Shown here: positions 27,724-54,614 of the stretch, in pieces | Layout: each line of letters begins with the position of its first letter | Numbering within the stretch: the stretch's first letter is position 1 | Sequence record: OQ031492 | Reading direction: 5' to 3' (one strand) | Origin: Escherichia phage MRostami-2023b | DNA length: 64,000 nucleotides | Notes under the pieces: generated by a model | Databases searched by the model: none | Told to the model about the DNA's origin: nothing | Seen by the model: only the letters and a program-made list of their open reading frames with translations | Program-made: the position numbers and the translations under genes

Positions 27724-28514
27724 TTTTTAGCACCTACTTTAACAACCCACTCTCCGAACTCTTCAGATAAGAGTTTGTCATAAAGCTCTGAATCTGTCAA
27801 GTCTAAATCTTTAATGCCAATAAAACCAACATTATCATAAGCATTTGCCAGTTCTTTCAGGAAGCCAAACTTCTCATTACCAACGCCAACCATGAACCAA
27901 TAAATAGGTTTATTCTTATTCTCTTCGATAAGACGACGAACAGCACTAGGATCACCATTCTCACCATCAGTCTGGAAGAATACAACACCAGGGGTAACGT
28001 CAGCACCTGGTTCAGATACAGCTACAACTTTTTCACGCTCTACAGACACTGTTTCAGTTTTACCAAGCAGACGATTAAAGAAGCCTTTCTTTGGAGCCTC
28101 CTCTTGTACCACTTGTTTAGTGGTAATATATTTAGTAACAGTGCCAAAATACTCATCGTAGATATCTGCCATTACAGGGGCGTAATTTGTTCCACCTCCG
28201 ATACGAACATTACGCATACATTTACCAACATAATCGTCGTAAACATTTGCTGTTGCTGGAGTAAGCTCTTGGGAACTCGTATTGAAGGCCCACATATCAA
28301 TTTGTTGATTATCGTCGAACAGCATACCAAAAGGAAGCAGTTTACCTACAAAATCACTCACTACCCCACTAGAATATAGACCATGCATACTACCAGAAAT
28401 ATCTAGAGCACATGCTACACGAAGAACAATCTTACCTTCATTCAGGTTCTTATTCTTTTTCAGAGAGAAAGCAAGGTTTTCTTGACGTTTTTTCAGGCTG
28501 ATTTTCTCGGACAT
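27720..28514 (-). CDS. von Willebrand factor A (vWA) domain protein with TerD-like N-terminal motif
   Basis: MIDAS motif DISGSM; N-terminus MSEKISLKK. Confidence 0.6.
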   Translation of the reverse strand: MSEKISLKKRQENLAFSLKKNKNLNEGKIVLRVACALDISGSMHGLYSSGVVSDFVGKLLPFGMLFDDNQQIDMWAFNTSSQELTPATANVYDDYVGKCMRNVRIGGGTNYAPVMADIYDEYFGTVTKYITTKQVVQEEAPKKGFFNRLLGKTETVSVEREKVVAVSEPGADVTPGVVFFQTDGENGDPSAVRRLIEENKNKPIYWFMVGVGNEKFGFLKELANAYDNVGFIGIKDLDLTDSELYDKLLSEEFGEWVVKVGAKK

Positions 28515-28515
28515 A

Positions 28516-28794
28516 TTATTTCTCCTTCTTAAGTGTAATATTGGTAACTTCTAAATCTACTTCCACCATATTTGTATCTGGTGGGATGCAATGAGTATAG
28601 CCTCGTTGTGCTAGTGATCCATTAATACAAATCGCACTGTTTGTGGAATTTTTAATGAACACCAAGTTACGGTAGGTATCCAACCCTGCGTCTTCATAGG
28701 CATCATAATACATGAATGTGGCCCCTACGTCAAGATCTTCGAAAGCAATAGGTAAATCCTGACTTTTTTCTTCTTGAATATTGAATCTAAACAC
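28516..28794 (-). CDS. Hypothetical protein, paralogue of 27225-27494 (GTG start)
   Basis: Start re-set to GTG after gaggagg RBS giving M-FRFNIQEE… matching MLNFEIDEQ… of paralogue. Confidence 0.4.
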   Translation of the reverse strand: MFRFNIQEEKSQDLPIAFEDLDVGATFMYYDAYEDAGLDTYRNLVFIKNSTNSAICINGSLAQRGYTHCIPPDTNMVEVDLEVTNITLKKEK

Positions 28795-29350
28795 ACATAC
28801 CTCCTCTACCAATTTTGAAGCCCAAATCGTAAGCTTCCTTAGTGATCTTTTGTAACTCACTTATAGGAAGTGTTACAAGAGGATCATCTTCTTCAATTTC
28901 CATCTTGTCATCTTCTGTTTCAATGAGAGTATTATGCACTTTGTGATAAGGGTTGTCAACACGTTTAAACTTATTCTTTTCTGTGCTGAAAAAACAATCT
29001 GGATCTTCTTCACCATCACCCCAACCTTGGTTAGGATCTCCGTCAGATTGTTCTGTAGGGATTTCACCTGTAAAGTACTCTTCCAGCACCATAGCGATAC
29101 CGTCCCTTGGATTTGAGGAATGCATCAAATCACAAACCTTACTCCAATCCATAGCCCATTCAAATCGTTCACGAACACCATTTTCATCCTCCTTTCCAGA
29201 GAAAACACAACCATAACTATCATAGTTGCCATACATCTCTTCAATAACAACACCATCCTTCAAAAGAAAGAGGTAGCAAGGCGATCCGTCGAAAGAAGTA
29301 GAAAGGGCAGCTTTGCCCGATTCTTTGCACAAAAAACTAAAACAACCCAT
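28787..29350 (-). CDS. Hypothetical acidic protein
   Basis: 187 aa ORF. Confidence 0.4.
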   Translation of the reverse strand: MGCFSFLCKESGKAALSTSFDGSPCYLFLLKDGVVIEEMYGNYDSYGCVFSGKEDENGVRERFEWAMDWSKVCDLMHSSNPRDGIAMVLEEYFTGEIPTEQSDGDPNQGWGDGEEDPDCFFSTEKNKFKRVDNPYHKVHNTLIETEDDKMEIEEDDPLVTLPISELQKITKEAYDLGFKIGRGGMCV

Positions 29351-29544
29351 TACAAACCCTCCTTCAGATTATCAAGAGCTACAGTGGTTTCACAAAATTC
29401 TCCATAAGCTTTATGATGTTCCAGAAAAGCTTCGGGTCCACCCCAGTCATTATCTTGTGTATTCCAGCCATCAATAAAAGCATCTTCAATGATTGTGATC
29501 AGTTCTTGTCGAGTCAACTGGANNNNNNNNNNNNNNNNNNNGTA

Positions 29545-29718
29545 TTATACATCTTCTTCCTCCTCTAAGATATGGAACCCGTAATTACAATAATCCTGAA
29601 AGGTTTCGTGTGCAAGATCTTCTATATCTTCTTGAGACATATCATCTTCAATTTCGATATCTACAACCTCATTGCATCCACACCAAGCAGTTTCAATATT
29701 CACTCGTAATATTTTCAT
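29545..29718 (-). CDS. Hypothetical small acidic protein
   Basis: 57 aa, RBS ggaggagg, ATG; not in ORF table (<60 aa). Confidence 0.35.
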   Translation of the reverse strand: MKILRVNIETAWCGCNEVVDIEIEDDMSQEDIEDLAHETFQDYCNYGFHILEEEEDV

Positions 29719-29915
29719 TACTCCTCCTCCTCATTGAAGTCAATATCTGCAAGGAGTTCGAATTTACGGAAGTTACGACAACCTTCATAAATATAACAAT
29801 CACGACAAACTGCTAGAACACTTGGGGGATATATGCCTCCCATCGGTGCGAATCGTTTTTCGTCATCATAACGGACACCAATGTCTTCATCAATTATATA
29901 GATACGGATTCTCAT
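29718..29915 (-). CDS. Hypothetical small protein
   Basis: 65 aa, overlaps neighbours by 1-4 nt. Confidence 0.35.
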   Translation of the reverse strand: MRIRIYIIDEDIGVRYDDEKRFAPMGGIYPPSVLAVCRDCYIYEGCRNFRKFELLADIDFNEEEE

Positions 29916-31024
29916 TTACCAAGCCCTCGTTTCACAGCAGCTACCATCCCGTCTTCCAGAGATTGAACTTCATTAATATAATCAACACGAGCAGCACGGG
30001 CTTCCGTATTGATGCGGTTAGTTTCTTCCAACATCTTAACCAAGTTTTCCTGATCGTGACGCAGAGTTTCAATATCCAACACTTGACGGTTAGCCAGTGC
30101 TGCTGCTTCGATCTGATTCTGTGTGGCAAGATCGCTACCCAGTTTAATTGCCAGGTTAAATTCATCAAGAACGTTATTCTGCGTCTCTGCTGCTTTCATT
30201 TGACGTAAGCTCTCGATATACATTGAGAAGTTAGCAGAGTAAGCAGGAATAACATTATTTACTATGTTACGCGCAGATCGCATTAAGCTTGCAGAAACTT
30301 TTTGCATACCTTGTACACGCGGTCCCATTTGGACACACAGTAGGCGCAATGCTTTTAAATCTGCAATACGAATCTCCAGAAGATCCAAAGTATCTCGGAT
30401 CACTTGTCGCTGTTCTACTGCATCTTCTGGAAGAGCAGCCAAAGCTTGTTCTTCTTTTTCATAGGTTGCTGTTAGAAGCTGCATATCTCGGTTCAAACTT
30501 GCAGCATATTGTCCAATAGCTTGATGTAGCTTTTCAAGATATACCAAGGAATCTTCTTCTTTGCGAATATCCATTTGAAGGTTCTTTACCAACTCTTCAA
30601 TACGGTTATTAACATTATCAAACTCCCCAAACAGATCTTCTTTCATACCCATAACTTTTTTAATGAGTTTAGTAATACCCTTGCTTTGTTTAATAGAGTT
30701 TGGATCAAGTTGTTTTGCCTGTTTAATCAAAGCTGTGAGTCGTTCACTCATCTGATCGCCTTGATTACTACGTTGATGTTTTAATACCTCGGCATTCAAG
30801 GAACGCAAGGTTGTTCCTGCCTCTGCCCCAATCTCTTCAATCTCTTGTCGGGTCATAGAAGGCAAAACTGGAACTTCTTGCGGTGCCGCTGGTGCATAAA
30901 CAGGACTGGCATCTAACACGCTTGGAGCGAATACAGATTTACTTGCATCGGTTGTTGCAGCAAATACGCTCATTTCAGGCTTCTTCTGACCACCAGTAGC
31001 TGCTTTTAAAAATGGACTTGTCAT
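29912..31024 (-). CDS. TelA-like (toxic anion resistance / KlaA family) protein
   Basis: 370 aa, alpha-helical composition; size and Ter-gene context; by-eye only. Confidence 0.4.
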   Translation of the reverse strand: MTSPFLKAATGGQKKPEMSVFAATTDASKSVFAPSVLDASPVYAPAAPQEVPVLPSMTRQEIEEIGAEAGTTLRSLNAEVLKHQRSNQGDQMSERLTALIKQAKQLDPNSIKQSKGITKLIKKVMGMKEDLFGEFDNVNNRIEELVKNLQMDIRKEEDSLVYLEKLHQAIGQYAASLNRDMQLLTATYEKEEQALAALPEDAVEQRQVIRDTLDLLEIRIADLKALRLLCVQMGPRVQGMQKVSASLMRSARNIVNNVIPAYSANFSMYIESLRQMKAAETQNNVLDEFNLAIKLGSDLATQNQIEAAALANRQVLDIETLRHDQENLVKMLEETNRINTEARAARVDYINEVQSLEDGMVAAVKRGLGK

Positions 31025-31611
31025 TCTTCATTCTCCTCTTCTGCATCTCTTATATATGGTGAAACACCGTACTCTTTAGCTACTTTAACCCAATCGTCCC
31101 ATTTATACAACCATAATTTTCCTTCGGTCCCTTCTTTATCTGATTTCAACCACATATTAGGTTGCTTACCTGGGTGCATGCGATTAGGTTTACGATTATA
31201 ACCTCTAACACATCTTGTCGCAAACCTATCTACCAGAACAAGAACATATTTATATTCGTGGTTCAACGGCTCTTTGGAAGTGGCTTTAGGATTAGCCCCT
31301 AATTCTGCTGCCAGTTTTTGCCAATGAGCACCGTGCCTACTAAACTTACCCATACAACCATCAATAGCATGAGCAATTTCGTGCTTCATTGTATCCACGA
31401 TCATATCTCTTGTGGAGTTCTTATGCAAGTGCCAATTTACAACAACAATTTTATCTCGGTAGTTGCACCAACCGAAAGAGTTATTCACTTTGTTTCTAAC
31501 ACAAGCTTTATATCCTGCTTCACGTAACATGTTGTAGTAAACAGGAAAATCTTCTTTTATTTCCTGCATCACTTCCCACCACAAGAGTTGCAAGTCTCTC
31601 TCGGTATACAT
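31021..31611 (-). CDS. SprT-like zinc metalloprotease domain protein
   Basis: HEIAHAI (HExxH) followed by SRHGAHWQKLAAELG as in SprT-like domains. Confidence 0.55.
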   Translation of the reverse strand: MYTERDLQLLWWEVMQEIKEDFPVYYNMLREAGYKACVRNKVNNSFGWCNYRDKIVVVNWHLHKNSTRDMIVDTMKHEIAHAIDGCMGKFSRHGAHWQKLAAELGANPKATSKEPLNHEYKYVLVLVDRFATRCVRGYNRKPNRMHPGKQPNMWLKSDKEGTEGKLWLYKWDDWVKVAKEYGVSPYIRDAEEENEE

Positions 31612-31614
31612 AAC

Positions 31615-32208
31615 TTACACCTTAAAAGTGAAATGCGTGGTCGTGGCTTCAAAATCAGGGCCAGATAAACGTGCACTGAAATCTGAAATATTTGTAATTA
31701 AAAAGCTTTTATGCATACCTAACACAGCCACGCTTTCAATATCTTCTACTAACATTTCAATCATGTTAGAAACATGGCTGAACGTAGAGTTTTGTTTTTT
31801 GATGGTGTAGAAAGAAAGATTCCCACCTGCTGTATAAGATACCTCTTCAAAATCTTTAATCGTATATTGTGTACCATCAGTAAAGAAAATGGTAGCTTTA
31901 TTAGTAGCACGTTTCTTGTTTTTTGGTCCTTTTTTACGTTTACTGCGAGTAGGCAAACCGTTTGGGAACACCGTAGCTACAAATTCTTCAGGGGAAACCT
32001 CCTTACCGAAATCATAATCGTAAGAAACAGCGTCTATACACTCGTCGTCTTCATTTTTAAAATAATGAAAATAGGGCCAATTTGAGAGATTATCGAGCAT
32101 CTTATGCGCATCCACAACAGAGAACGTATCCCTCAAAGCACGTGTGATTTGCAAAGCATTAGGCAAACTTTTAACACCTGTAATGGAAGTACGAATAGAA
32201 ATTGTCAT
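31615..32208 (-). CDS. Hypothetical protein
   Basis: 197 aa ORF. Confidence 0.4.
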   Translation of the reverse strand: MTISIRTSITGVKSLPNALQITRALRDTFSVVDAHKMLDNLSNWPYFHYFKNEDDECIDAVSYDYDFGKEVSPEEFVATVFPNGLPTRSKRKKGPKNKKRATNKATIFFTDGTQYTIKDFEEVSYTAGGNLSFYTIKKQNSTFSHVSNMIEMLVEDIESVAVLGMHKSFLITNISDFSARLSGPDFEATTTHFTFKV

Positions 32209-32222
32209 TGTTTTTCTCCTTA

Positions 32223-32660
32223 TTAACGTCGCTTGCTACGAGATGAACTCTTTTTACTTAAAGGGCTATTGTAAGATTTACGAGTTGTATAGCTACTATT
32301 TGTTTTAAAAGTTTGTCTCGGCTTTTCATAAGTTTTTATCTCTTGTTTAGGCTTACCATAAAAATTAGTTTTCGGTTTAGGTGTATTATAATGCTTATTA
32401 ATAATCGTTCTGTTATCGTTATAATCCCCACTGCTACGATTACTACCACCACTCATCATATGCCCTAACAACATACCTGTAGCAAACTCACCAACACCGC
32501 TACTACTAGAACCGCCACCATTGTTGATAATAGTTGTATCTCCGTCAGATCCTTGTTGAGCGTATTGTTGAGGAGGTTGTTGGTATTGTGCAGGATTTGT
32601 TTCATCCTCGCAAGCTGTTAAAAAGATACAACCAATTAAAATCAGGGCTAGTTTTTTCAT
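32223..32660 (-). CDS. Lipoprotein
   Basis: Start at MKKLALILIGCIFLTAC (lipobox LTAC) after RBS aggaaa; Gly/Ser-rich. Confidence 0.5.
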   Translation of the reverse strand: MKKLALILIGCIFLTACEDETNPAQYQQPPQQYAQQGSDGDTTIINNGGGSSSSGVGEFATGMLLGHMMSGGSNRSSGDYNDNRTIINKHYNTPKPKTNFYGKPKQEIKTYEKPRQTFKTNSSYTTRKSYNSPLSKKSSSRSKRR

Positions 32661-32847
32661 ATTTGCTTTCCTCATTTTGACTATTAATACATCTGTGTTT
32701 GAAATCTCCAGAGAAGCAATAAAGTTGCTCTCCATCTCGGTATAAACTCACTTTACTGCCGTTGATTACGCTTGTCAATACAAAAATTACAACAAACAAC
32801 CCTATTGCAAAACAAATATTTTCAAACACAACCAACAAGTATTTCAT
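32602..32847 (-). CDS. Putative small membrane protein (overlaps lipoprotein start)
   Basis: 81 aa, hydrophobic segment, RBS gaggt. Confidence 0.3.
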   Translation of the reverse strand: MKYLLVVFENICFAIGLFVVIFVLTSVINGSKVSLYRDGEQLYCFSGDFKHRCINSQNEESKYEKTSPDFNWLYLFNSLRG

Positions 32848-33194
32848 TTTAAAAATACCTCATCATCAGTCTCATTATCCCAGAAGAACAAATCCCAACC
32901 ATTCGGATCATTCCATTTGGCTGCTGGAGAAGTCCATATTTGTTCGATATCAATATTCAAAACTTCACCGTTTCGTTTTGAAACAGCTTTAGTTAATTCC
33001 CAACGAGATACAGGCTCTACTTCCCCTGAACCACTCCCACAACAAGCTACCACGTTAGGAGGCAAATTAATTGGATCTTTGGTCACGATCATAACGCTTA
33101 CCCCAGGGTAAACTTTTGAAAGATAATCTAAAACGTAATCCACATCACCAGATAAATCCCAAACAAGTTCTTGAATTTCATCAAAATTATTCAT
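32844..33194 (-). CDS. Hypothetical acidic protein
   Basis: 116 aa ORF. Confidence 0.4.
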   Translation of the reverse strand: MNNFDEIQELVWDLSGDVDYVLDYLSKVYPGVSVMIVTKDPINLPPNVVACCGSGSGEVEPVSRWELTKAVSKRNGEVLNIDIEQIWTSPAAKWNDPNGWDLFFWDNETDDEVFLK

Positions 33195-33212
33195 AAGTCT
33201 CTCCTATAAAAT

Positions 33213-33230
33213 AGCCTCCCGAAGGAGGCT
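33213..33230 (-). terminator. Hairpin (terminator-like) after TerC
   Basis: agcctcc-cgaa-ggaggct; U-rich on minus strand. Confidence 0.45.
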
Positions 33231-33236
33231 CATCTA

Positions 33237-34211
33237 TTAAACAGCAGCTTCTTCTTTTTCAGGGAAGATAAAGCTTGCAATAACACCAAGAGCTAATGTG
33301 CCTAGAACAATCATCAGGCTTACGTTAGGGGAAATATCATGCGGGAGGAATGACCACTTGGCATGAAGTGTTTCACCGAACGGGTGATACATAAGTTTAG
33401 CACCAACAAACACCAGAACCACAGCAACAGCTTTCTCTAAGTGAACCAGATATTTCACAGCTACACTTAACACAAAGAAAAGTGCACGTAAACCAAGAAC
33501 AGCCATCAGCATTGCAGAATAAACTAGCAGAGGTTCTTGTGTCACACCGATCACAGCCGGAACTGAATCAAAAGAGAAGACAATATCTGTAAGCTCAATA
33601 ACAAACACACAAAGAATAGCAGGAGTTGCATATTTAATACCATTCTTAATGGTGATGAACTTTTCACCATCCAGTGCATTGTGCACAGGCAGAACTTTAC
33701 CTACTAAACGAACAGCCCAATGCTTAGAGTAATCAATATCCTCTTCTTCGTCACCACCTTTGATGATAGCCACGGCAGACCAAGCTACAATCAAACCGAA
33801 CAACACTTGGACCGACCAATGAAGGTTAAACAAAGCGGTCCCTGCTGCAACAAAAATACCTCGGAAGACAATGGCTCCTGCAATCCCCCAAAGTAAAATC
33901 TTATGTTGGAGATGTGTGCTCTTAATTCCAAAGCTTGCAAAAATTGCCATGAACACCATCAGGTTATCTACAGAAAGACTCTTTTCCAACACATAGCCAC
34001 TTAGGAAAAGCGCGGCAAACTCTTTACCATGTTCTACCCAAATGAATGCGTAATATCCTAAAGCTAAAGCAATCCAAAAAACAGACCAAAGCAAAGCAGA
34101 TTTAATTCCAATTTCTTTATTCTCTTTGTGACCAAAGAAATCAATACCAATAGACAATGCTAAAATACCAACTAAAACAACTACATCAATAATTGGGAAA
34201 CCAAGTTGCAT
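33237..34211 (-). CDS. TerC-family integral membrane protein
   Basis: 324 aa multi-TM protein with EKSLSVDN signature typical of TerC/Alx family. Confidence 0.7.
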   Translation of the reverse strand: MQLGFPIIDVVVLVGILALSIGIDFFGHKENKEIGIKSALLWSVFWIALALGYYAFIWVEHGKEFAALFLSGYVLEKSLSVDNLMVFMAIFASFGIKSTHLQHKILLWGIAGAIVFRGIFVAAGTALFNLHWSVQVLFGLIVAWSAVAIIKGGDEEEDIDYSKHWAVRLVGKVLPVHNALDGEKFITIKNGIKYATPAILCVFVIELTDIVFSFDSVPAVIGVTQEPLLVYSAMLMAVLGLRALFFVLSVAVKYLVHLEKAVAVVLVFVGAKLMYHPFGETLHAKWSFLPHDISPNVSLMIVLGTLALGVIASFIFPEKEEAAV

Positions 34212-34228
34212 TCTTTTCTCCTCTCTTT

Positions 34229-34288
34229 GCGGGGAACTATTCCCCGCTTCATGTGATATATCTTACTCTTTTTAAGAACTATGTCAAC
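34229..34288 (-). promoter_or_regulatory. Promoter plus leader hairpin of the same class as the 55.8-62.4 kb array, upstream of TerC
   Basis: Minus strand reads TTGACA-N17-TAAGAT-atatcac-…GCGGGGAAtagTTCCCCGC then RBS and ATG. Confidence 0.5.
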
Positions 34289-34290
34289 AC

Positions 34291-34512
34291 TTATTTTGTT
34301 GAATGAGAGGAAAAGATTCCTCGTAATACAGCCAGAATAAACGAAACACAAACCACGGTCCAGAAGGTTACTGGGACAGTGATATCTGCATGACCCATAA
34401 CTTCAGCAACATAGTTGTAAGCCAGCAACAGTAACCAAGCTGGAATCAAACTAAGCATAAAAGCAATAACAAAAAAGCTTACCACTGCAACAATACCTGC
34501 AAAAACACCCAT
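34291..34512 (-). CDS. Small membrane protein
   Basis: 73 aa, two hydrophobic helices. Confidence 0.4.
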   Translation of the reverse strand: MGVFAGIVAVVSFFVIAFMLSLIPAWLLLLAYNYVAEVMGHADITVPVTFWTVVCVSFILAVLRGIFSSHSTK

Positions 34513-34524
34513 ACTAATCTCCTC

Positions 34525-34998
34525 TTAAAGTTTATAAATAGTCACATCGTGACCTGTTTTTACTAAAGTTTCTTCAATCATCACTTGGATGATAGCCCAA
34601 TTACCTCCAGCATATCCAGCGCCAATCATAGGTAAGCCGATCTTACATTTTTGGTCACGGAGAAGCAAATCGTTAGCCATAGCTATTAGTGCATCGTAAA
34701 GTGCATCATAGTCCAACTGACGACCTTTAGCATTGTATCCGTAACGGTATTGCCCGTATAGATTATATACCAAAGGGTCTGATTGTTCGTCTGGCACCCC
34801 TAAACTAAAACAACCTAGTTTACTTTGATCACCAGCCATTGTGTCTAAGTCTGCTGCATATGCGTAAGGAAATGCTTGTTTGATTTGTGGGGCAATACCT
34901 GCCCCCATATTACACATACAGTTGCAACAATGAGCAATAACAGTTACTTCACCTGCTTTAGCGGCATCAATAAGATTACCTGTTTTCATTTTAAGCAT
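34525..34998 (-). CDS. Macro-domain (ADP-ribose binding/processing) protein
   Basis: Start set at MLKMKTG after RBS; VIAHCCNCMCNMGAGIA…LPMIGAGYAGGNW pattern. Confidence 0.55.
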   Translation of the reverse strand: MLKMKTGNLIDAAKAGEVTVIAHCCNCMCNMGAGIAPQIKQAFPYAYAADLDTMAGDQSKLGCFSLGVPDEQSDPLVYNLYGQYRYGYNAKGRQLDYDALYDALIAMANDLLLRDQKCKIGLPMIGAGYAGGNWAIIQVMIEETLVKTGHDVTIYKL

Positions 34999-35011
34999 TT
35001 TTAGCTCCTTA

Positions 35012-35839
35012 TTACAGAATGTGTTGTTTTGTGTAACGATCCAAGAATTCAAAGTTTTCAGCATACTTTGAAATTCGGTTGTAACCTTCTCCCAAGCATC
35101 CAAAGAAAAGTTGCTCTACATAGTAATGTGGCAATTGGCTAAGAATGATTTTGAAGTCTTCATGATTTTGGCCCATAAGATACTTAATAGGACGAACAAG
35201 ACACTGTGCATCACGTTCTTCATTAATCATTTTAACAAACGCTTCTGGTGTATTAATGTAGTTAAAATTCAGTTTAGCTTCGGTATCTGCTTGATTACCT
35301 TCGTATTTTGCAAAATACAAGAAGTAAACATCATTTTTAACTTGATTTTCATCAAGGATCTCAATCAGTTTGTCTTCATGCGTTCCAGTGATATTTACAT
35401 CATCAATGAATACAAGCTTCTTATCACCCCAGAATTCTTTGTTGCAGTAGAATGTATCCCCATCAATAAGTTTCTTACGACTAGCTTTATCCAAGAAGCC
35501 ATAATCGTTAATATAGCTAACTTTACGATGAATAATATCCAGTTCTGCTGAACGACCTTGATCATATTGTGCTTGCAACATATTAAAGTAATTAATAAAA
35601 TGATCTGTCATCATTGTTGCAGCATTATGCACATGGTTGTAAGGAGAAGGAATGATAACAAATTGTTCCCCAATATGTTTCATTGCCACTTGAGCAAAAA
35701 ACTGAAGTGCCAATTCTTTACCCATACGACGCGCGGCTTGGTTACTACCAAATTTCAATTTTGAATAATCTTGGATATCAAAAGTAGCAGTTTCCAGGTC
35801 ATCAAATTTATTTGCAAAAATTTGAGTTTGATTACGCAT
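35012..35839 (-). CDS. Type I phosphoribosyltransferase-like protein
   Basis: PRPP-binding motif KLVFIDDVNITGTHE. Confidence 0.5.
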   Translation of the reverse strand: MRNQTQIFANKFDDLETATFDIQDYSKLKFGSNQAARRMGKELALQFFAQVAMKHIGEQFVIIPSPYNHVHNAATMMTDHFINYFNMLQAQYDQGRSAELDIIHRKVSYINDYGFLDKASRKKLIDGDTFYCNKEFWGDKKLVFIDDVNITGTHEDKLIEILDENQVKNDVYFLYFAKYEGNQADTEAKLNFNYINTPEAFVKMINEERDAQCLVRPIKYLMGQNHEDFKIILSQLPHYYVEQLFFGCLGEGYNRISKYAENFEFLDRYTKQHIL

Positions 35840-36488
35840 TTACAATTTCTCCTCTTTTAAGTTTCTCTAGTAAGTCGTTAGGGTTCTTAATATGACAGAA
35901 GTTAAATCCTAAGTCAACACATTTTCCATCATATTCTTCACTATCGCCTACGTGCAACACTTCGTGCCCTAACAGAGGGATCGGAGAATACGTGAGCGTG
36001 CGAGCAAAGAATCGCGGATCTGGTTTACAAAGTAAAGCTTCATCCGAGAAATGGGTGAACTCAAAACAATTCCAACTATCAAACTTACAAGCACGACGCA
36101 GGATATCCCCTGATATGAAGTTGGTATTGCTCTTAATACTCAAATCATAACGCCCCGAAAGATACAGCAAGTACATCGGTAGATCCACAGCTACATGAGG
36201 TGGAAACTTAAGGAACCATTGTTCACACTCGAAACGNNNNNNNNNNNNNNNNNNNNNNNNNNNNNNNNNNNNNNNNNNNNNNNNNNNNNNNNNNNNNNNN
36301 NNNNNNNNNNNNNNNNNNNNNNNNNNNNNNNNNNNNNNNNNNNNNNNNNNNNNNNNNNNNNNNNNNNNNNNNNNNNNNNNNNNNNNNNNNNNNNNNNNNN
36401 NNNNNNNNNNNNNNNNNNNNNNNNNNNNNNNNNNNTTTGCAGTGATCAGTGTGTTCCATACATCAAAAGAGATATGTTTAATAGTCAT
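35832..36488 (-). CDS. HAD-superfamily hydrolase-like protein (interior masked by N)
   Basis: N-terminal ISFDVWNTLI (motif I-like), later KPDP and GDS; 199 N inside. Confidence 0.4.
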   Translation of the reverse strand: MTIKHISFDVWNTLITAXXXXXXXXXXXXXXXXXXXXXXXXXXXXXXXXXXXXXXXXXXXXXXXXXXXXXXXXXXXXXXXXXXXRFECEQWFLKFPPHVAVDLPMYLLYLSGRYDLSIKSNTNFISGDILRRACKFDSWNCFEFTHFSDEALLCKPDPRFFARTLTYSPIPLLGHEVLHVGDSEEYDGKCVDLGFNFCHIKNPNDLLEKLKRGEIVNA

Positions 36489-36489
36489 A

Positions 36490-37095
36490 TTAAGCCCACC
36501 ATGCGTCTAAGTTAAGATTACTGTCCACTACCACTTGTTCTATGTGGTAGCCTTTTATCTGTATCCCACTGTTCAAGAGCATATCATACGCTTCATTGAA
36601 ACGCAACTTATCTTCTGCGGAATATAAGCGAGCATTATAAAATCGGTAATCAACTTCTTCAGCATTAGAAGAAATACGGAAGAAGTTTGTTTCTACTTCG
36701 GGATCACTTGCTGAAGTCTTAATGTGAACTTCTCCGTAATTTTCTTTACTTAGATCCATGAAAAGAACACAGGCAACATGTTTAAACATTCGTTCCAGTT
36801 TGTAACGAACAACATTGAAACCTGCATTCTCAAGTTTTTCTACACACTGCAACATTAAAGTAGTGTCGAGATCGCTTTGATATTTTGTTAACATACGATC
36901 ACGTTGAGACTTTGTATCCCGATGTAAATCAATTGTTGTGCATTTGGCACCAATAATCTTAGCTGCTTTCATCAACTCTCCAGAACTAACGTTAGATAAA
37001 GTAAGATGAAAATGGGCTTTCCACACTTTTTTAGCAGGGACACCAAAAGATTTATCCCCACTATTCGGCATGTTGACTACTACACTATGTTGCAT
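36490..37095 (-). CDS. Hypothetical protein (weak H-x-T-x motif)
   Basis: 201 aa; HFHLTL motif; weak. Confidence 0.35.
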   Translation of the reverse strand: MQHSVVVNMPNSGDKSFGVPAKKVWKAHFHLTLSNVSSGELMKAAKIIGAKCTTIDLHRDTKSQRDRMLTKYQSDLDTTLMLQCVEKLENAGFNVVRYKLERMFKHVACVLFMDLSKENYGEVHIKTSASDPEVETNFFRISSNAEEVDYRFYNARLYSAEDKLRFNEAYDMLLNSGIQIKGYHIEQVVVDSNLNLDAWWA

Positions 37096-37110
37096 TACTT
37101 ATCTCCTCAC

Positions 37111-37335
37111 TTAAAATGGAAGTCTTTGAAGTTCATCTCCTCCGATATCAAGTAATTTAGCAACATCTCGATCAGAAAGCAACTCTTTTCTTTGTAAAAT
37201 ATCCACAAGGGTTGCAAGAATGTCCTTAACGTCCCGATCACTGTTCTTCAAAAGTTCTCCTGCCGTCCCTACTCTATCTCCTACAGCAAAATATGTAACC
37301 ATGAAACCTCCTAAGTTAATCTGATTGCCAACCAC
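37111..37335 (-). CDS. Hypothetical small protein
   Basis: 74 aa ORF overlapping nrdG start. Confidence 0.3.
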   Translation of the reverse strand: MVGNQINLGGFMVTYFAVGDRVGTAGELLKNSDRDVKDILATLVDILQRKELLSDRDVAKLLDIGGDELQRLPF

Positions 37336-37786
37336 TTGCCGTTTTGGTCCATAATCTTTGATTATCTGACCCTCTGAAAGGTTTTGTAGTTGGATTGTTT
37401 ATTTCATACTTTCCGTCTACAATAATGTCAACAAGATTTTTAATATACAAAGGCACTTCCTCAAAAGTATATCCTGTATACACCATTATATCTTTGCTTG
37501 ACCCATAAACGTCTCTAACCTTTTCTATAAGGTTTTTAACATTGTAAATATTCTGCGGATCTAATGGCTCTCCTCCTAAAATTGTTAAACCTTTTACAAA
37601 CGGTCTTGACAAATCTTTTAAAACTTGCTCTACATTTTCGTGAGTAAACGGTTTCCCATAAGAATAAGACCAGGCTTTTTGGTTAAAACAGCCACGACAA
37701 CCGTGGCTACAACCACTAACCCAGAGGGAGCACCTAACTCCCTCACCATTAATAAGATCTACAGGTTCGTATCCTGCAAAATTCAA
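37316..37786 (-). CDS. nrdG: Anaerobic ribonucleotide reductase activating protein (radical SAM)
   Basis: CSHGCRGCFN (CxxxCxxC) motif; overlaps nrdD stop. Confidence 0.8.
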   Translation of the reverse strand: MNFAGYEPVDLINGEGVRCSLWVSGCSHGCRGCFNQKAWSYSYGKPFTHENVEQVLKDLSRPFVKGLTILGGEPLDPQNIYNVKNLIEKVRDVYGSSKDIMVYTGYTFEEVPLYIKNLVDIIVDGKYEINNPTTKPFRGSDNQRLWTKTASGWQSD

Positions 37787-39597
37787 AAATGTTTCTCCCT
37801 TTGCAAAACTTCCTGCATTTTACCTTTGTTATAAGGCCGTGAATTAGGGGCAGAAAGATACCCTGATACACGTCTAACTACAGAAATAGTTTCTTCTTCA
37901 TGGTTGCCACAATCAGGACACTCAAACCCTTTAGCCGTTGCCTTAAATTCCCCATGAAAACCACACTTAAAGCATTGATCCACGGGCTGATTAATACCAA
38001 AATAGTGAATATGTTCATAAGCGTAGTCTACTAAAGTCTCCAAAGCTTCTAAGTTATTCTTTAAGTTTGGTGTTTCGACATAACTTATGTTACCACCATT
38101 ACTAATCTGTGCAAAACCTGCTTCATAATCCCATTTTTCAAAAGGGTTTGTTACCAACCACACAGGTTGATGAAAAGAGTTAGTAAGATAGTCTCTTTCT
38201 ACCAAACCTGGGTATTTTTCATTTAAAGCTGTTGCAAACTTATAGCACAAAGATTCTGCTGGAGTTCCATAGAGACTAAACGCCAAATTAGATCGTTCTT
38301 TAAACACAGCACACACATCTTTCATATGTTGCAGAATGTTTTTACCAAGTTCCTTTTTATCTTTTTCTTCTGGATAAAGGATTTCCAAAGCTTCGGCAAG
38401 ACCTACATAACCAATACTAATAGAAGCATAACCACCTTCAAACAAAACACCAATTTCATCGTTGGCATTTAAACGCGCTAAAGCCCCTTCCATGAAAAGA
38501 ATAGGGTTTTCAGATGCTTTGGTATGTCTGATACGGTTTACACGTAGCATGTGAGCATCGTAGGCTATCTCCATATGTTTATTAAGAAGATCGGTGAAAG
38601 ATTCTCCTTTACTTCTCGCTTCCGCAGCGATCAGAGGTAAGTTGATAGAAACTACTCCAAGGTTGAATCGTCCATCGTATTTTTCTCCTTGTTCTGTGAC
38701 ATAGTACGACAAAAAGGAACGACAACCCATACTCGTAACAGTGCCATCTGCTGATCCCGTAACTTCTTTGTTCAAAGGAACAGAAATAAAATCTGGATAA
38801 ATACGATCAGCACAACATGCCAAAGCTTGTTGCTTAAGGTCATAGTTAGGATCACTAGGTTTCATGTTAACACCTTCTTGTAAAAAGAAAATAACTTTAG
38901 GGAATACAGGCGTTACATGATCTTTGCCTAGACCATTACTATGCACTTTAAGATAGTTAGCTGTGATCATTCTGCCAAAAACAGAGGTATCCAGACCCAT
39001 ACTGATTGTAATAAAAGGAGATTGTCCATTAACACTCATTAAAGTATTAACCTGATACAAGAGAGTTTGCATAGCATCATATACATCTTGTTCGGTCATT
39101 TTTAGGGCTTCTTTCCTTGCATAACAACCGTAGCGACGTTTGGTTATCTCCATGTTTTTAAGGAAACTAGCTTCAACATAAGGACTAAGACCTTTATCAA
39201 TGTGCGCACACGTCTGACCTCCATACTGACTGGAGGCAACAGCTTGGATGATTTGAGTTAGCACTGTGGTAGCTACTCCAATAGATTTTGGTTTTTCTAT
39301 CTGTGCGGCACCGATTTTAAAACCATTTTCTAACATATCTTGATAATTAACAAGACAACAGTTTGTAAGAGGAGAGAGCAGATAATCCAAGTCGTGAATA
39401 TGTCCAAAACCTTCTGTATGCCACTCTGACAAGTTTTTTGGCAGTATCTGTGTCATTGCCATATGTTTGCTTAAAATCCCCGCCAAGAGATCCCTATGCG
39501 TGTTAACGAGGTGGGAAGGTTTGTTTGCATTCTCTCTAGTGTATGTTTCTGAAGTACGATCTAAAAAAGAAAAAACATCTTGGTACAAATCTTTCAT
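37783..39597 (-). CDS. nrdD: Anaerobic ribonucleoside-triphosphate reductase
   Basis: 604 aa; C-terminal Zn ribbon CFKCG…CPDCG and glycyl-radical motif RRVSGYL. Confidence 0.9.
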   Translation of the reverse strand: MKDLYQDVFSFLDRTSETYTRENANKPSHLVNTHRDLLAGILSKHMAMTQILPKNLSEWHTEGFGHIHDLDYLLSPLTNCCLVNYQDMLENGFKIGAAQIEKPKSIGVATTVLTQIIQAVASSQYGGQTCAHIDKGLSPYVEASFLKNMEITKRRYGCYARKEALKMTEQDVYDAMQTLLYQVNTLMSVNGQSPFITISMGLDTSVFGRMITANYLKVHSNGLGKDHVTPVFPKVIFFLQEGVNMKPSDPNYDLKQQALACCADRIYPDFISVPLNKEVTGSADGTVTSMGCRSFLSYYVTEQGEKYDGRFNLGVVSINLPLIAAEARSKGESFTDLLNKHMEIAYDAHMLRVNRIRHTKASENPILFMEGALARLNANDEIGVLFEGGYASISIGYVGLAEALEILYPEEKDKKELGKNILQHMKDVCAVFKERSNLAFSLYGTPAESLCYKFATALNEKYPGLVERDYLTNSFHQPVWLVTNPFEKWDYEAGFAQISNGGNISYVETPNLKNNLEALETLVDYAYEHIHYFGINQPVDQCFKCGFHGEFKATAKGFECPDCGNHEEETISVVRRVSGYLSAPNSRPYNKGKMQEVLQREKHF

Positions 39598-52282: not shown

Positions 52283-53191
52283 NNNNNNNNNNNNNNNNNN
52301 NNNNNNNNNNNNNNNNNNNNNNNNNNNNNNNNNNNNNNNNNNNNNNNNNNNNNNNNNNNNNNNNNNNNNNNNNNNNNNNNNNNNNNNNNNNNNNNNNNNN
52401 NNNNNNNNNNNNNNNNNNNNNNNNNNNNNNNNNNNNNNNNNNNNNNNNNNNNNNNNNNNNNNNNNNNNNNNNNNNNNNNNNNNNNNNNNNNNNNNNNNNN
52501 NNNNNNNNNNNNNNNNNNNNNNNNNNNNNNNNNNNNNNNNNNNNNNNNNNNNNNNNNNNNNNNNNNNNNNNNNNNNNNNNNNNNNNNNNNNNNNNNNNNN
52601 NNNNNNNNNNNNNNNNNNNNNNNNNNNNNNNNNNNNNNNNNNNNNNNNNNNNNNNNNNNNNNNNNNNNNNNNNNNNNNNNNNNNNNNNNNNNNNNNNNNN
52701 NNNNNNNNNNNNNNNNNNNNNNNNNNNNNNNNNNNNNNNNNNNNNNNNNNNNNNNNNNNNNNNNNNNNNNNNNNNNNNNNNNNNNNNNNNNNNNNNNNNN
52801 NNNNNNNNNNNNNNNNNNNNNNNNNNNNNNNNNNNNNNNNNNNNNNNNNNNNNNNNNNNNNNNNNNNNNNNNNNNNNNNNNNNNNNNNNNNNNNNNNNNN
52901 NNNNNNNNNNNNNNNNNNNNNNNNNNNNNNNNNNNNNNNNNNNNNNNNNNNNNNNNNNNNNNNNNNNNNNNNNNNNNNNNNNNNNNNNNNNNNNNNNNNN
53001 NNNNNNNNNNNNNNNNNNNNNNNNNNNNNNNNNNNNNNNNNNNNNNNNNNNNNNNNNNNNNNNNNNNNNNNNNNNNNNNNNNNNNNNNNNNNNNNNNNNN
53101 NNNNNNNNNNNNNNNNNNNNNNNNNNNNNNNNNNNNNNNNNNNNNNNNNNNNNNNNNNNNNNNNNNNNNNNNNNNNNNNNNNNNNNNNNNN
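52283..53191. other. Masked sequence (909 N)
   Basis: N run; content unknowable. Confidence 0.9.
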
Positions 53192-53896: not shown

Positions 53897-54085
53897 ATGG
53901 CACGTTTAGCAGATCATGAAATCTTTAAACCTATTCTGAACCACTATGATGAACTTAAAGCAGTGTTGGATTGTTATAGAGAGGATGAAGAACTCTTGGA
54001 GACAAACCTTAAAGTAGTTCTGATGAAAGCCTATCAGCAAGGGCAACGTGAAATTTTGGAGAGTATGAAAAATGCGAATAACTGA
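53897..54085 (+). CDS. Hypothetical small protein
   Basis: Start at MARLADHE after aaggaga RBS. Confidence 0.35.
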   Translation: MARLADHEIFKPILNHYDELKAVLDCYREDEELLETNLKVVLMKAYQQGQREILESMKNANN

Positions 54086-54614
54086 TGATTATGTATTCTT
54101 CTTTTCACATAAAGATGTTTTTAGTAATTGGTATATTGCACCCTTTACAGAAACCGAACCAGGTTACAATCAGACATTTAATTGTGTCGAACAATACATG
54201 ATGTGGCGTAAAGCTTTGCTTTTTAATGATCACAACACTGCACAGGCTATTCTGACTCATAGTTTGATACGGAAAGATGAGAAGATCCAAGCTTATTACA
54301 AACGTATGGGTAGGGCAGTGTCGGATTTTGATAACAATGTATGGGAAGAGAACCGTGAGCGTATTGTTATGCGAGGTTTATGCTTGAAATATGTACAGAA
54401 TCCAGATTTGTATGCAGACTTACACCTTTACCAATACAAAACGTTTGTTGAAGCAAGCCCCTACGATAAGGTTTACGGAATTGGAATGGGGATGTATGAA
54501 CCAGGGGTGCTAAACCCTGCCACCTGGAAAGGGCAGAATCTTTTAGGTAAATATCATAATAAACTGATCGAAATACTTTTCCCAGACAGAATACCGCAAA
54601 GACGATATTTGTGA
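54072..54614 (+). CDS. NADAR-domain protein (YbiA-like)
   Basis: FFFSHKDVFSNWY…EQYMMWRKALLF…DKVYGIGMG…GQNLLGKYHNKL matches NADAR/DUF1768 landmarks. Confidence 0.65.
   Translation: MRITDDYVFFFSHKDVFSNWYIAPFTETEPGYNQTFNCVEQYMMWRKALLFNDHNTAQAILTHSLIRKDEKIQAYYKRMGRAVSDFDNNVWEENRERIVMRGLCLKYVQNPDLYADLHLYQYKTFVEASPYDKVYGIGMGMYEPGVLNPATWKGQNLLGKYHNKLIEILFPDRIPQRRYL

What the first reader, a model, noticed from the sequence alone, without database searches (positions are those of the whole stretch)
34525..34998. Macro-domain protein next to a phosphoribosyltransferase: ADP-ribose processing in a phage
The macro fold binds or hydrolyses ADP-ribose derivatives. Together with the NADAR protein at 54072-54614 this gives the phage two ADP-ribose-directed enzymes, which fits removal of host-imposed ADP-ribosylation (DarT-type DNA ADP-ribosylation or NAD-derived signals). 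The PRTase and HAD neighbours suggest a ribose-phosphate pathway.
Basis: inference. Interest (0 to 1): 0.7.

Follow-up and report, generated by a model that had tools for sequence, protein, structure and literature searches.

The report
Phage macrodomain, likely anti-DarT eraser
A small, strongly conserved gene of this phAPEC8-like E. coli phage encodes a macrodomain enzyme of the kind that strips ADP-ribose off DNA, most likely to defeat the bacterial DarTG2 defence; it is an untested member of a recently described class and is not functionally tied to the phosphoribosyltransferase next door.

Summary
Window 34525-34998 (minus strand) is a real 157-aa gene (phAPEC8 gp050, annotated 'phosphatase') with a strong ribosome-binding site and dN/dS of 0.05-0.08. 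It has a confidently predicted macro fold (pLDDT 94.5). Its nearest solved relatives are TARG1, DarG, BT1257 and SCO6735, the macrodomain class that removes ADP-ribose from thymidine in DNA. It has SCO6735's essential Gln (Q83) where TARG1 and DarG have the catalytic Lys. This Gln is invariant in 150 of 150 diverse relatives. The protein is 36% identical to T4 Tk.4 (E 1e-20, same PHROG 335). Tk.4 was recently named AdfM because T4 needs it to resist DarTG2. The NADAR at 54072-54614 is 59% identical to AdfN of phage Bas60, a proven anti-DarTG1 enzyme. So the 'two erasers against DarT' reading is supported by homology, and it is already a known concept. The PRTase/HAD 'ribose-phosphate pathway' link is not supported. 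HAD plus PRTase_3 is a conserved pair in 36 of 40 loci. A macro gene adjoins it only in this phage subfamily and in none of 19 bacterial loci. The pair belongs to an abbreviated Ter system. Verdict: new member of a known kind, modest interest, function untested for this protein.

The parts
34525..34998 (-). Macrodomain gene, 157 aa plus stop (phAPEC8 gp050 orthologue). It belongs to the TARG1/DarG/SCO6735 class and is an AdfM-like candidate DNA ADP-ribosyl glycohydrolase. Key residues are H23, N26, Q83, G126 and G128.
35005..35010 (-). Shine-Dalgarno AAGGAG, 7 nt upstream of the macro ATG. Only a 13-nt gap separates the macro gene from the PRTase_3 stop codon.
54072..54614 (+). NADAR gene (180 aa), the second ADP-ribose eraser of the phage. 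It is 59% identical to AdfN of phage Bas60 (bas60_0111), which was shown to neutralise DarT1 (guanine-ADPr).
35012..35839 (-). Neighbour, not part of the macro function: PRTase_3 (ComF-like phosphoribosyltransferase). It is one half of the conserved HAD-PRTase_3 pair, the biosynthetic module of the Ter system.
35832..36488 (-). Neighbour, not part: HAD-superfamily hydrolase (36237-36435 is N-masked in the window). Its motif I is the non-canonical S-F-D-V-W-N-T-L. It overlaps PRTase_3 by 8 nt.
34291..34512 (-). Neighbour: small hydrophobic protein (73 aa, PHROG 16065), 12 nt downstream of the macro gene. It co-occurs with the macro only in Stephanstirmvirinae-like loci.
33237..34211 (-). Neighbour: TerC membrane protein, with its own promoter-like site (34287-34260) and terminator (33230-33213).
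29912..31024 (-). Neighbour: TelA (toxic anion resistance family), another component of the abbreviated Ter system.

Best explanation
The gene encodes a stand-alone macrodomain ADP-ribosyl glycohydrolase of the ALC1-like class (TARG1/DarG/SCO6735). It is a homologue of phage T4 Tk.4 (AdfM). It is expressed from the co-directional early/middle gene block that starts at nrdD. It most likely binds ADP-ribosylated single-stranded phage DNA and hydrolyses the N-glycosidic bond between ADP-ribose and thymine N3, the mark made by the host toxin DarT2. This restores replicable DNA and lets the phage grow on DarTG2-carrying E. coli. Catalysis would follow the SCO6735 scheme: Gln83, not a Lys, positions the distal ribose, Asn26 locks it in place, and Gly126/Gly128 form the flexible phosphate-binding loop. 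The NADAR at 54072-54614 would do the complementary job on guanine-ADPr made by DarT1. Shown here: the fold, the class, the conserved active-site residues, homology to AdfM and AdfN, and purifying selection. Inferred: the substrate and the biological role.
For: Fold and class. The AF2 model has pLDDT 94.5. The top Foldseek hits are TARG1, BT1257, T. aquaticus and M. tuberculosis DarG, Poa1p and SCO6735. By sequence the best solved relative is SCO6735 (3.5e-12). The only NCBIfam and PADLOC hits are DarG models.

Active site. H23, N26, Q83, G126 and G128 align with SCO6735 His24, Asn27, Gln85, Gly126 and Gly128 (alignment). In SCO6735, Gln85Ala abolishes thymidine-ADPr hydrolysis and Gln85 occupies the position of TARG1 Lys84 and DarG Lys80 (PMC9411070). 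Q83 is invariant in 43 of 43 homologues and in 150 of 150 representatives that are at most 50% identical to each other. N26 is conserved in 149 of 150.

Homology to a genetically validated factor. The protein is 36% identical to T4 Tk.4 (E 1e-20), with the NLYxQ motif shared. Both fall in PHROG 335. Deleting tk.4 sensitises T4 to DarTG2 (bioRxiv 10.1101/2025.11.20.689424). PhiKZ AdfM removes T-ADPr in vitro and protects against DarTG2 (PMC13309987).

Partner gene. The window's NADAR is 59% identical to AdfN of Bas60, which rescues phages from DarTG1 but not from DarTG2. That leaves the thymine mark for a second enzyme.

The gene is real and selected: dN/dS 0.05-0.08, 2979 phage records carry a homologue, and there are 6020 cluster representatives in total.
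Against: There is no experiment on this protein or on any Stephanstirmvirinae macro. The HIDEN-SEQ study used T4, Bas37 and Bas54 only. Identity to T4 AdfM is only 36%, and the evidence for T4 AdfM is genetic and from a preprint. Enzymes of this class are promiscuous. TARG1 and SCO6735 also act on protein Glu-ADPr, on uracil-ADPr in RNA and on O-acetyl-ADP-ribose-type substrates. The protein is acidic (pI 5.2), whereas SCO6735 owes its high DNA activity to an electropositive groove and Lys89, which is not conserved here. T4 Tk.4 is also acidic, however (pI 5.9). Many close homologues sit in NAD/ADP-ribose metabolism islands with NamPT-like, Prs-like, Nudix and SIR2 genes. That placement would also fit a small-molecule substrate.
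Confidence: 0.6

Rival explanations
1. The macrodomain acts on small ADP-ribose derivatives rather than on DNA. Candidate substrates are O-acetyl-ADP-ribose (the phage genome type also encodes a Sir2), ADP-ribose-1''-phosphate (the Poa1p-type 'phosphatase' activity of the old annotation) and ADPr-derived immune signals. Its role would be to detoxify, to silence signals, or to return free ADP-ribose to NAD metabolism.
For: TARG1 is also known as O-acetyl-ADP-ribose deacetylase 1, and Poa1p is among the structural hits. A close relative's genome encodes a Sir2 at 81-881. The closest homologues outside the subfamily lie in islands of NUDIX, NamPT, NADAR, macro, HAD, SIR2 and Prs genes, or next to NamPT-like and Prs-like genes. 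Iyer et al. [quoted passage not shown]
Confidence: 0.15
2. The macrodomain reverses a different macromolecular ADP-ribosylation. This could be ADP-ribosylated RNA (e.g. uracil-N3 marks) or protein ADP-ribosylation (Glu/Asp-linked), imposed either by a host ART defence other than DarT2 or by the phage's own enzymes.
For: SCO6735, TARG1 and DarG hydrolyse uracil-ADPr in ssRNA (PMC13036486). SCO6735 and TARG1 also de-modify proteins. The class is catalytically versatile, and the family is very large and widespread (6020 representatives), well beyond hosts known to carry DarTG2.
Against: No bacterial defence is yet known to make uracil-ADPr RNA or Glu-ADPr protein marks against phages. The reported discussion of CmdT-type adenine RNA marks calls them irreversible so far. 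SCO6735 is inactive on 2'-OH and 5'-phosphate RNA ADP-ribosylation. The homologue with genetic data points to DarTG2.
Confidence: 0.15
3. The macrodomain is a dedicated step of a ribose-phosphate or nucleoside pathway together with the adjacent PRTase_3 and HAD. For example, it might trim a ribosylated intermediate of the Ter-type 'nucleoside-like metabolite'.
For: The packing is tight and co-directional: HAD and PRTase_3 overlap by 8 nt, a 13-nt gap precedes the macro gene, and there is no terminator between nrdD and gp051. The same order is kept in the sister genus Justusliebigvirus. TelA, TerC or vWA genes lie within 10 kb of macro homologues in a few other lineages.
Against: Of 40 PRTase_3 loci, 36 keep the HAD partner but only the 6 Stephanstirmvirinae-like ones have an adjacent macro gene, and none of the 19 bacterial loci has one within 10 kb. 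XaC1, Rhizobium and Brevundimonas phages have the pair without a macro gene. Among macro loci, only 3 of 32 lineages have PRTase_3 nearby. In contig IMGVR_UViG_3300041405_000148 the two genes are about 10.5 kb apart. T4 AdfM works without any such neighbours.
Confidence: 0.05

Closest known systems
T4 Tk.4 = AdfM (anti-DarT factor macro), HIDEN-SEQ preprint 10.1101/2025.11.20.689424
   Same: Both are stand-alone macrodomains of about 155 aa in the same PHROG 335. They are 36% identical (E 1e-20) and share the NLYxQ motif with Gln at the catalytic position. Both are acidic. Both are phage-encoded alongside a separate NADAR (T4 30.3/AdfN).
   Different: The genomic context differs: T4 tk.4 lies between vs and tk, whereas here the gene lies between PRTase_3 and a small membrane protein. 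The sequences are diverged. The anti-DarTG2 role is shown genetically for T4 only.
Streptomyces coelicolor SCO6735 (PDB 5E3B)
   Same: It is the best sequence match among solved structures (3.5e-12). It has the same catalytic layout (His, Asn, Gln instead of Lys, Gly-x-Gly loop). It is a stand-alone 'orphan' enzyme that cleaves thymidine-linked ADP-ribose from DNA and rescues cells from DarT.
   Different: SCO6735 is bacterial and DNA-damage inducible. It has an electropositive DNA groove and Lys89 on a long mobile loop. The phage protein is acidic and has Gly at the aligned position of Lys89.
DarG antitoxin of DarTG2 (T. aquaticus, M. tuberculosis; PDB 5M3E, 5M3I)
   Same: Same macro class. 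The PADLOC DarG model aligns over the whole protein (4e-10). Foldseek TM is about 0.76-0.79. DarG removes ADP-ribose from thymidine in ssDNA.
   Different: DarG is about 330-340 aa with a C-terminal DarT-binding domain. It is encoded next to darT and uses a catalytic Lys80. The phage protein has none of these features (NCBIfam 35 bits against a cutoff of 250).
PhiKZ gp104 = AdfM of chimalliviruses (Cell Rep 2026, PMC13309987)
   Same: It is a phage-encoded orphan macrodomain that removes DarT2-made T-ADPr and protects against DarTG2.
   Different: It is the DarG-like subtype with a conserved Lys (K78) and is imported into the phage nucleus. Sequence relatedness to the window protein was not tested here.
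Human TARG1/OARD1 (PDB 4J5S)
   Same: It is the top structural match (E 4e-11, TM 0.79-0.88) and reverses thymine- and uracil-linked ADP-ribosylation.
   Different: It uses a Lys84/Asp125 dyad. The phage protein has Gln83 at the Lys position and Ala-Gly-Gly where TARG1 has Asp125. TARG1 is eukaryotic and basic.

Membership tests
Macro domain superfamily (Pfam PF01661) | Three-layer alpha/beta/alpha macro fold | tested here: met
   The AF2 model has pLDDT 94.5 and pTM 0.91. Foldseek gives 207 PDB hits at E<=1e-3, all macrodomains among the top 50.
Macro domain superfamily (Pfam PF01661) | Score at or above the Pfam gathering threshold | tested here: met
   22.4 bits against a cutoff of 22 (E 1.3e-4). 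The match is marginal. The Bas60 orthologue scores 31.4 bits.
ALC1-like / TARG1-like macrodomain class | Closest structural and sequence neighbours are TARG1, DarG, BT1257 and SCO6735, rather than MacroD, PARG or viral macros | tested here: met
   The phmmer ranking and the Foldseek ranking both show this. MacroD-type and alphavirus macros rank lower, with 12-16% identity.
SCO6735-type subclass (Gln-dependent T-ADPr hydrolases) | Gln at the position of TARG1 Lys84 and DarG Lys80, plus His24, Asn27 and Gly126/Gly128 | tested here: met
   Q83, H23, N26, G126 and G128 align with these residues. Q83 is conserved in 150 of 150 representatives.
SCO6735-type subclass (Gln-dependent T-ADPr hydrolases) | Electropositive DNA-binding groove and lysine-bearing mobile loop (Lys89) | tested here: not met
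   The protein has pI 5.2, and Gly87 aligns with Lys89. The functional T4 AdfM is also acidic (pI 5.9), so this feature may not be required.
SCO6735-type subclass (Gln-dependent T-ADPr hydrolases) | Hydrolysis of thymidine-linked ADP-ribose on ssDNA | not testable with these tools
   This needs an in vitro assay.
DarG antitoxin (NCBIfam NF048014, type II TA DarTG2) | C-terminal DarT-binding domain (protein of about 330 aa) | tested here: not met
   The protein is 157 aa. It scores 35.2 bits against a cutoff of 250 and matches only the N-terminal macro part.
DarG antitoxin (NCBIfam NF048014, type II TA DarTG2) | Encoded next to a darT toxin gene | tested here: not met
   The neighbours are PRTase_3 and a 73-aa membrane protein. 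No ART gene is annotated in the region.
DarG antitoxin (NCBIfam NF048014, type II TA DarTG2) | Catalytic Lys (T. aquaticus K80) | tested here: not met
   The equivalent position holds Gln83.
AdfM (phage anti-DarT factor macro), T4 Tk.4 type | Phage-encoded orphan macrodomain homologous to Tk.4 | tested here: met
   BLASTP gives 36% identity at E 1e-20. Both proteins fall in PHROG 335 (1.2e-53 and 1.3e-65).
AdfM (phage anti-DarT factor macro), T4 Tk.4 type | Required for, or sufficient for, phage growth on DarTG2 hosts | not testable with these tools
   No published test of a Stephanstirmvirinae macro was found.
Poa1p-like ADP-ribose-1''-phosphate phosphatase (origin of the 'phosphatase' annotation) | Specific similarity to Poa1p and phosphatase activity | tested here: inconclusive
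   Poa1p is a weaker hit than TARG1 and DarG (phmmer 2e-3 over residues 18-92 only; Foldseek 8e-8). Activity was not testable.
Ter-system biosynthetic module (PRTase + HAD) | Conserved co-occurrence with the PRTase_3/HAD pair across lineages | tested here: not met
   A macro gene is adjacent in 6 of 40 PRTase_3 loci, all from one phage subfamily, and in 0 of 19 bacterial loci. Only 3 of 32 macro lineages have PRTase_3 nearby.

The most novel reading that the evidence does not exclude
The main in vivo substrate of this very large Gln-type phage macrodomain family (PHROG 335) may not be DarT2-modified DNA. It could be another ADP-ribose conjugate, such as RNA uracil-ADPr, a protein mark, or a small ADPr-derived metabolite or signal. 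In Stephanstirmvirinae the fixed HAD(Trp-type)-PRTase_3-macro-membrane protein-TerC arrangement would then reflect a real functional coupling of an ADP-ribose eraser to the Ter-type nucleoside pathway. Such coupling has not been described.
Probability: 0.12. Interest if true: 0.6.

Novelty: new member of a known kind. Interest (0 to 1): 0.3.

Why it matters
If the protein is an AdfM, phAPEC8-like phages carry a matched pair of DNA ADP-ribose erasers: the macro for thymine marks and the NADAR for guanine marks. These phages are candidates for therapy against avian-pathogenic and other E. coli. The pair would make them intrinsically resistant to both DarTG subtypes, which is relevant to predicting host range. 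It would also show that the T4-type AdfM belongs to the Gln-dependent SCO6735 mechanistic subclass and not to the Lys-dependent DarG/PhiKZ type. Phages would then have recruited two different catalytic solutions for the same counter-defence. Correcting the inherited 'phosphatase' annotation would affect roughly 3000 phage genome records.

Tried and rejected
1. Macro as part of a PRTase/HAD pathway. Rejected by synteny counts in 40 PRTase_3 loci and 80 macro loci.

3. ADP-ribose recycling through NARP1. Many homologues sit near NamPT-like and Prs-like genes, but this phage type has neither in the roughly 133 kb checked.

4. NADAR-macro adjacency as a general rule. It appears in 20 of 80 loci, but these collapse into a single lineage at 70% identity. 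In this window the two genes are 19 kb apart on opposite strands.

5. Acidic pI as an argument against DNA binding. This is weakened because the functional T4 AdfM is also acidic.

6. LeRoux et al. 2022 and Anantharaman et al. 2012 could not be read because they are not held. The DarTG2 sensitivity of Bas60-62 therefore remains unknown to me.

7. The longer TTG-initiated ORF (192 aa, from 35103) was rejected. It overlaps the PRTase_3 gene, lacks a ribosome-binding site, and no homologue aligns to the extension.

Full report
WHAT THE WINDOW IS. Megablast of 33000-38000 finds 77 phage records. The best is 99.5% identical, and 67 records cover at least 80% of the query. Nearly all are Phapecoctavirus (subfamily Stephanstirmvirinae), the phAPEC8-like E. 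coli myophages of about 150 kb. In phAPEC8 the gene in question is gp050, annotated 'phosphatase'.

THE OBSERVATION. The minus-strand ORF ending at 34525 (TAA) starts at the ATG at 34998 and encodes 157 aa. AAGGAG sits 7 nt upstream of the ATG. The PRTase_3 stop codon is 13 nt upstream, and the next gene starts 12 nt downstream with its own AGGAG. The longer TTG-initiated reading (192 aa) overlaps the PRTase gene, and no homologue supports it.

Against diverged relatives (18-82 nucleotide differences) dN/dS is 0.05-0.08, so the gene is under strong purifying selection. The Pfam Macro hit is only just above threshold (22.4 against 22 bits), but every other test agrees:
- PHROG 335 at 1.2e-53.
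- PDB sequence hits to SCO6735 (3.5e-12), BT1257, TARG1, DarG and Poa1p.
- The PADLOC DarG model at 4e-10 across the whole protein, and NCBIfam antitoxin_DarG as the only hit.
- An AlphaFold2 model with pLDDT 94.5 and pTM 0.91.
- Best Foldseek matches to TARG1 (E 4e-11, TM 0.79-0.88), BT1257, T. aquaticus and M. tuberculosis DarG, Poa1p and SCO6735.

WHICH MACRODOMAIN. The protein belongs to the ALC1-like/TARG1-like class. [quoted passage not shown] Numbering the HMMER alignment to SCO6735 through the paper's residues gives these equivalences: phage H23/N26 = His24/Asn27, Q83 = Gln85, and G126/G128 = Gly126/Gly128. Gln85 occupies the position of the catalytic Lys84 of TARG1 and Lys80 of DarG, and its mutation abolishes SCO6735 activity. 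TARG1 Asp125 has no counterpart here (the sequence is Ala-Gly-Gly).

In an alignment of 43 homologues down to 45% identity, H23, N26, Q83, G126, G128 and W134 are invariant. A full HMMER scan of 1.84 billion cluster representatives finds 6020 relatives (2011 at E <= 1e-10). Among the best 150, which are mutually at most 50% identical, Q83 is present in 150 of 150 and N26 in 149 of 150. The family is therefore a large, catalytically intact, Gln-type branch of the TARG1/DarG class.

LINK TO EXPERIMENTALLY CHARACTERISED PHAGE PROTEINS. tblastn finds homologues in 2979 phage records, including T4-like, rV5-like, FelixO1-like, KVP40-like and PAK_P1-like phages. In T4-type genomes the hit is tk.4. 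Direct BLASTP of the window protein against T4 Tk.4 gives 36% identity and E 1e-20, with the NLYxQ motif aligned. Both proteins, and the rV5-type, FelixO1-type, Bas60 and Pseudomonas M5.1 versions, fall in PHROG 335.

A 2025 preprint showed by transposon sequencing and a clean knockout that tk.4 is the single T4 gene needed to resist DarTG2, and named it adfM. Independently, PhiKZ gp104, a DarG-like macrodomain with the Lys retained, was shown to remove DarT2-made ADP-ribose from DNA and to protect chimalliviruses. It was also named AdfM.

For the second enzyme, the window's NADAR is 59% identical (E 2e-69) to bas60_0111 of phage PaulScherrer (Bas60, Justusliebigvirus, same subfamily). AdfN of Bas60 neutralises DarT1 and rescues three sensitive phages from DarTG1, but not from DarTG2. 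The pair in this phage therefore mirrors T4's AdfN plus AdfM.

MOST LIKELY MECHANISM. The protein is made from the co-directional block that begins after the terminator at 39693-39673 and runs through nrdD, nrdG, a 201-aa gene, HAD, PRTase_3, macro and gp051 with no terminator-like site. A separate promoter-like site (34287-34260) and a terminator (33230-33213) flank terC. It would bind ADP-ribosylated ssDNA and hydrolyse the thymine-N3-ribose bond by the SCO6735-type, Gln-assisted, water-mediated route.

The fold, class, residues and homology are shown. The substrate and role are inferred. I put this explanation at about 0.6. That the protein is an active ADP-ribosyl hydrolase of this class I put near 0.9.

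THE PRTase/HAD QUESTION.

From the macro side, I examined 80 IMG/VR loci with the closest homologues and 10-kb flanks. PRTase_3 is nearby in 5 of them, all Stephanstirmvirinae-like. Clustered at 70% macro identity, that is 3 of 32 lineages, and about 19 lineages show none of the tested neighbours.

From the PRTase side, the protein occurs in only 156 phage records. I examined 40 loci: 19 bacterial (rhizobia, Bacteroidetes and others), 16 IMG/VR, three GenBank phages, one Justusliebigvirus, and one 'MAG' contig that is the phage itself. The HAD gene lies directly upstream in 36 of them. A macro gene is adjacent only in the 6 Stephanstirmvirinae-like loci, lies 7 kb away in one jumbo contig, and is absent from every bacterial locus. 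One related 153-kb contig has the macro and PRTase_3 about 10.5 kb apart (L015/L133).

The conserved unit is thus HAD-PRTase_3. With TelA (29912-31024), TerC, a SprT-like protein and a weak vWA-like hit (around 28179-28430), it fits the abbreviated phage Ter system. In that system PRTase plus HAD are proposed to make a nucleoside-like signal (PMC7824862). The macro gene looks like an insertion into this early region, not a component of it.

OTHER CONTEXTS AND RIVALS. Outside the subfamily the closest homologues lie in NAD/ADP-ribose islands.
- Pseudomonas phage M5.1 has Prs-like, NamPT-like and macro genes, with TelA, vWA and TerC further on.
- Jumbo-phage contigs have NUDIX, NamPT, NADAR, macro, HAD_SAK_2, SIR2 and Prs genes.

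Such co-occurrence of Macro, NADAR, Nudix and SLOG domains was described by Iyer et al. 2022, who favoured small-molecule substrates. This keeps a small-molecule role alive (O-acetyl-ADP-ribose, ADPr-1''-P, signals). A relative's genome also encodes a Sir2. However, the phage lacks NamPT-like and Prs-like genes, and the upstream 201-aa protein is not a 2H phosphoesterase. The tested phage Macro and NADAR proteins have so far turned out to be DNA erasers. Activity on RNA uracil-ADPr or on protein marks is biochemically plausible for this class, but it has no known defence counterpart.

COMPARISON AND NOVELTY. The protein works like DarG but is not a DarG. It has no C-terminal DarT-binding domain, no adjacent darT gene and no catalytic Lys, and it scores 35 bits against the 250-bit cutoff. 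It is best filed as a T4-type AdfM homologue of the SCO6735 mechanistic subclass.

The concept of orphan antitoxin-like erasers in phages was published in 2025-2026, and the sister-genus NADAR has been tested. The finding is therefore a new, untested member of a known kind.

Modest points of interest remain:
- The T4-type and PhiKZ-type AdfM proteins use different catalytic residues.
- The widespread 'phosphatase' annotation is probably wrong.
- The fixed HAD-PRTase_3-macro order within one subfamily is unexplained, though probably historical.

Interest: 0.3.

Noticed in passing
[not shown]
   Followed up: partly
window 35832-36488 (-); L001:7836-8492; loci L100-L136: The HAD partner of PRTase_3 has a strictly conserved non-canonical motif I, S-F-D-[VLF]-W-x-T-L. 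Trp replaces the second Asp (the general acid/base of HAD phosphatases) in phages, rhizobia and Bacteroidetes alike. It may therefore not be an ordinary phosphatase, which bears on the proposed 'nucleoside-like metabolite' chemistry of Ter systems.
   Followed up: partly
window 28179-34211 (-): An abbreviated Ter system is present in the phage. It comprises a vWA-like hit (around 28179-28430, 36% identity to the M5.1 vWA protein), TelA (29912-31024), a SprT-like metallopeptidase (31021-31611, HEIAH motif) and TerC (33237-34211, with its own promoter-like site and terminator), together with the HAD/PRTase_3 pair.
   Followed up: partly
L095, L096 (jumbo-phage contigs); L011 (Pseudomonas phage M5.1): The closest macro homologues outside the subfamily sit in NAD/ADP-ribose islands. 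One arrangement is NUDIX - Glu_synthase - NamPT - NADAR - x - Macro - HAD_SAK_2 - ... - SIR2 - ... - Prs - PhyH - Thg1. In M5.1 the order is Prs-like - x - NamPT-like - macro, then TelA - vWA - TerC 2-4 kb further on.
   Followed up: partly
L005:6833-7567 (Bas60 bas60_0070); L009:3995-4780 (FelixO1-type gp13): Some orthologues carry extra regions. The Bas60 macro is annotated with an N-terminal extension of about 90 aa (244 aa in total, part of it matched by PHROG 335). The FelixO1-type protein has a C-terminal extension of about 105 aa (261 aa in total). The function of these extensions is unknown.
   Followed up: no
window 15373-61825 (11 runs): The window contains 11 runs of N (9-909 bases). 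One of them, 36237-36435, lies inside the HAD gene. Others are 16266-16986 and 52283-53191, and they cause the apparent GC dips. Any reading of those genes has to use relatives such as phAPEC8.
   Followed up: yes
search hits H3, H45, H143, H137: GenBank records named as Acinetobacter, Campylobacter and Pseudomonas phages (e.g. vB_AbaM_ABPW7 at 99.0% identity, Campylobacter phage C3/C5, PsgM04F) are near-identical to E. coli Stephanstirmvirinae or Vequintavirinae. This suggests mislabelled hosts or contaminant phages in those deposits.
   Followed up: no
OR437326.1 81-881 and 29792-31277 (outside the window; L098): The same phage type encodes a Sir2-like NAD-dependent deacetylase and an RNA ligase plus phosphoesterase pair. 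These are further NAD/ADPr- and RNA-repair-related functions that could interact with the macro and NADAR.
   Followed up: no
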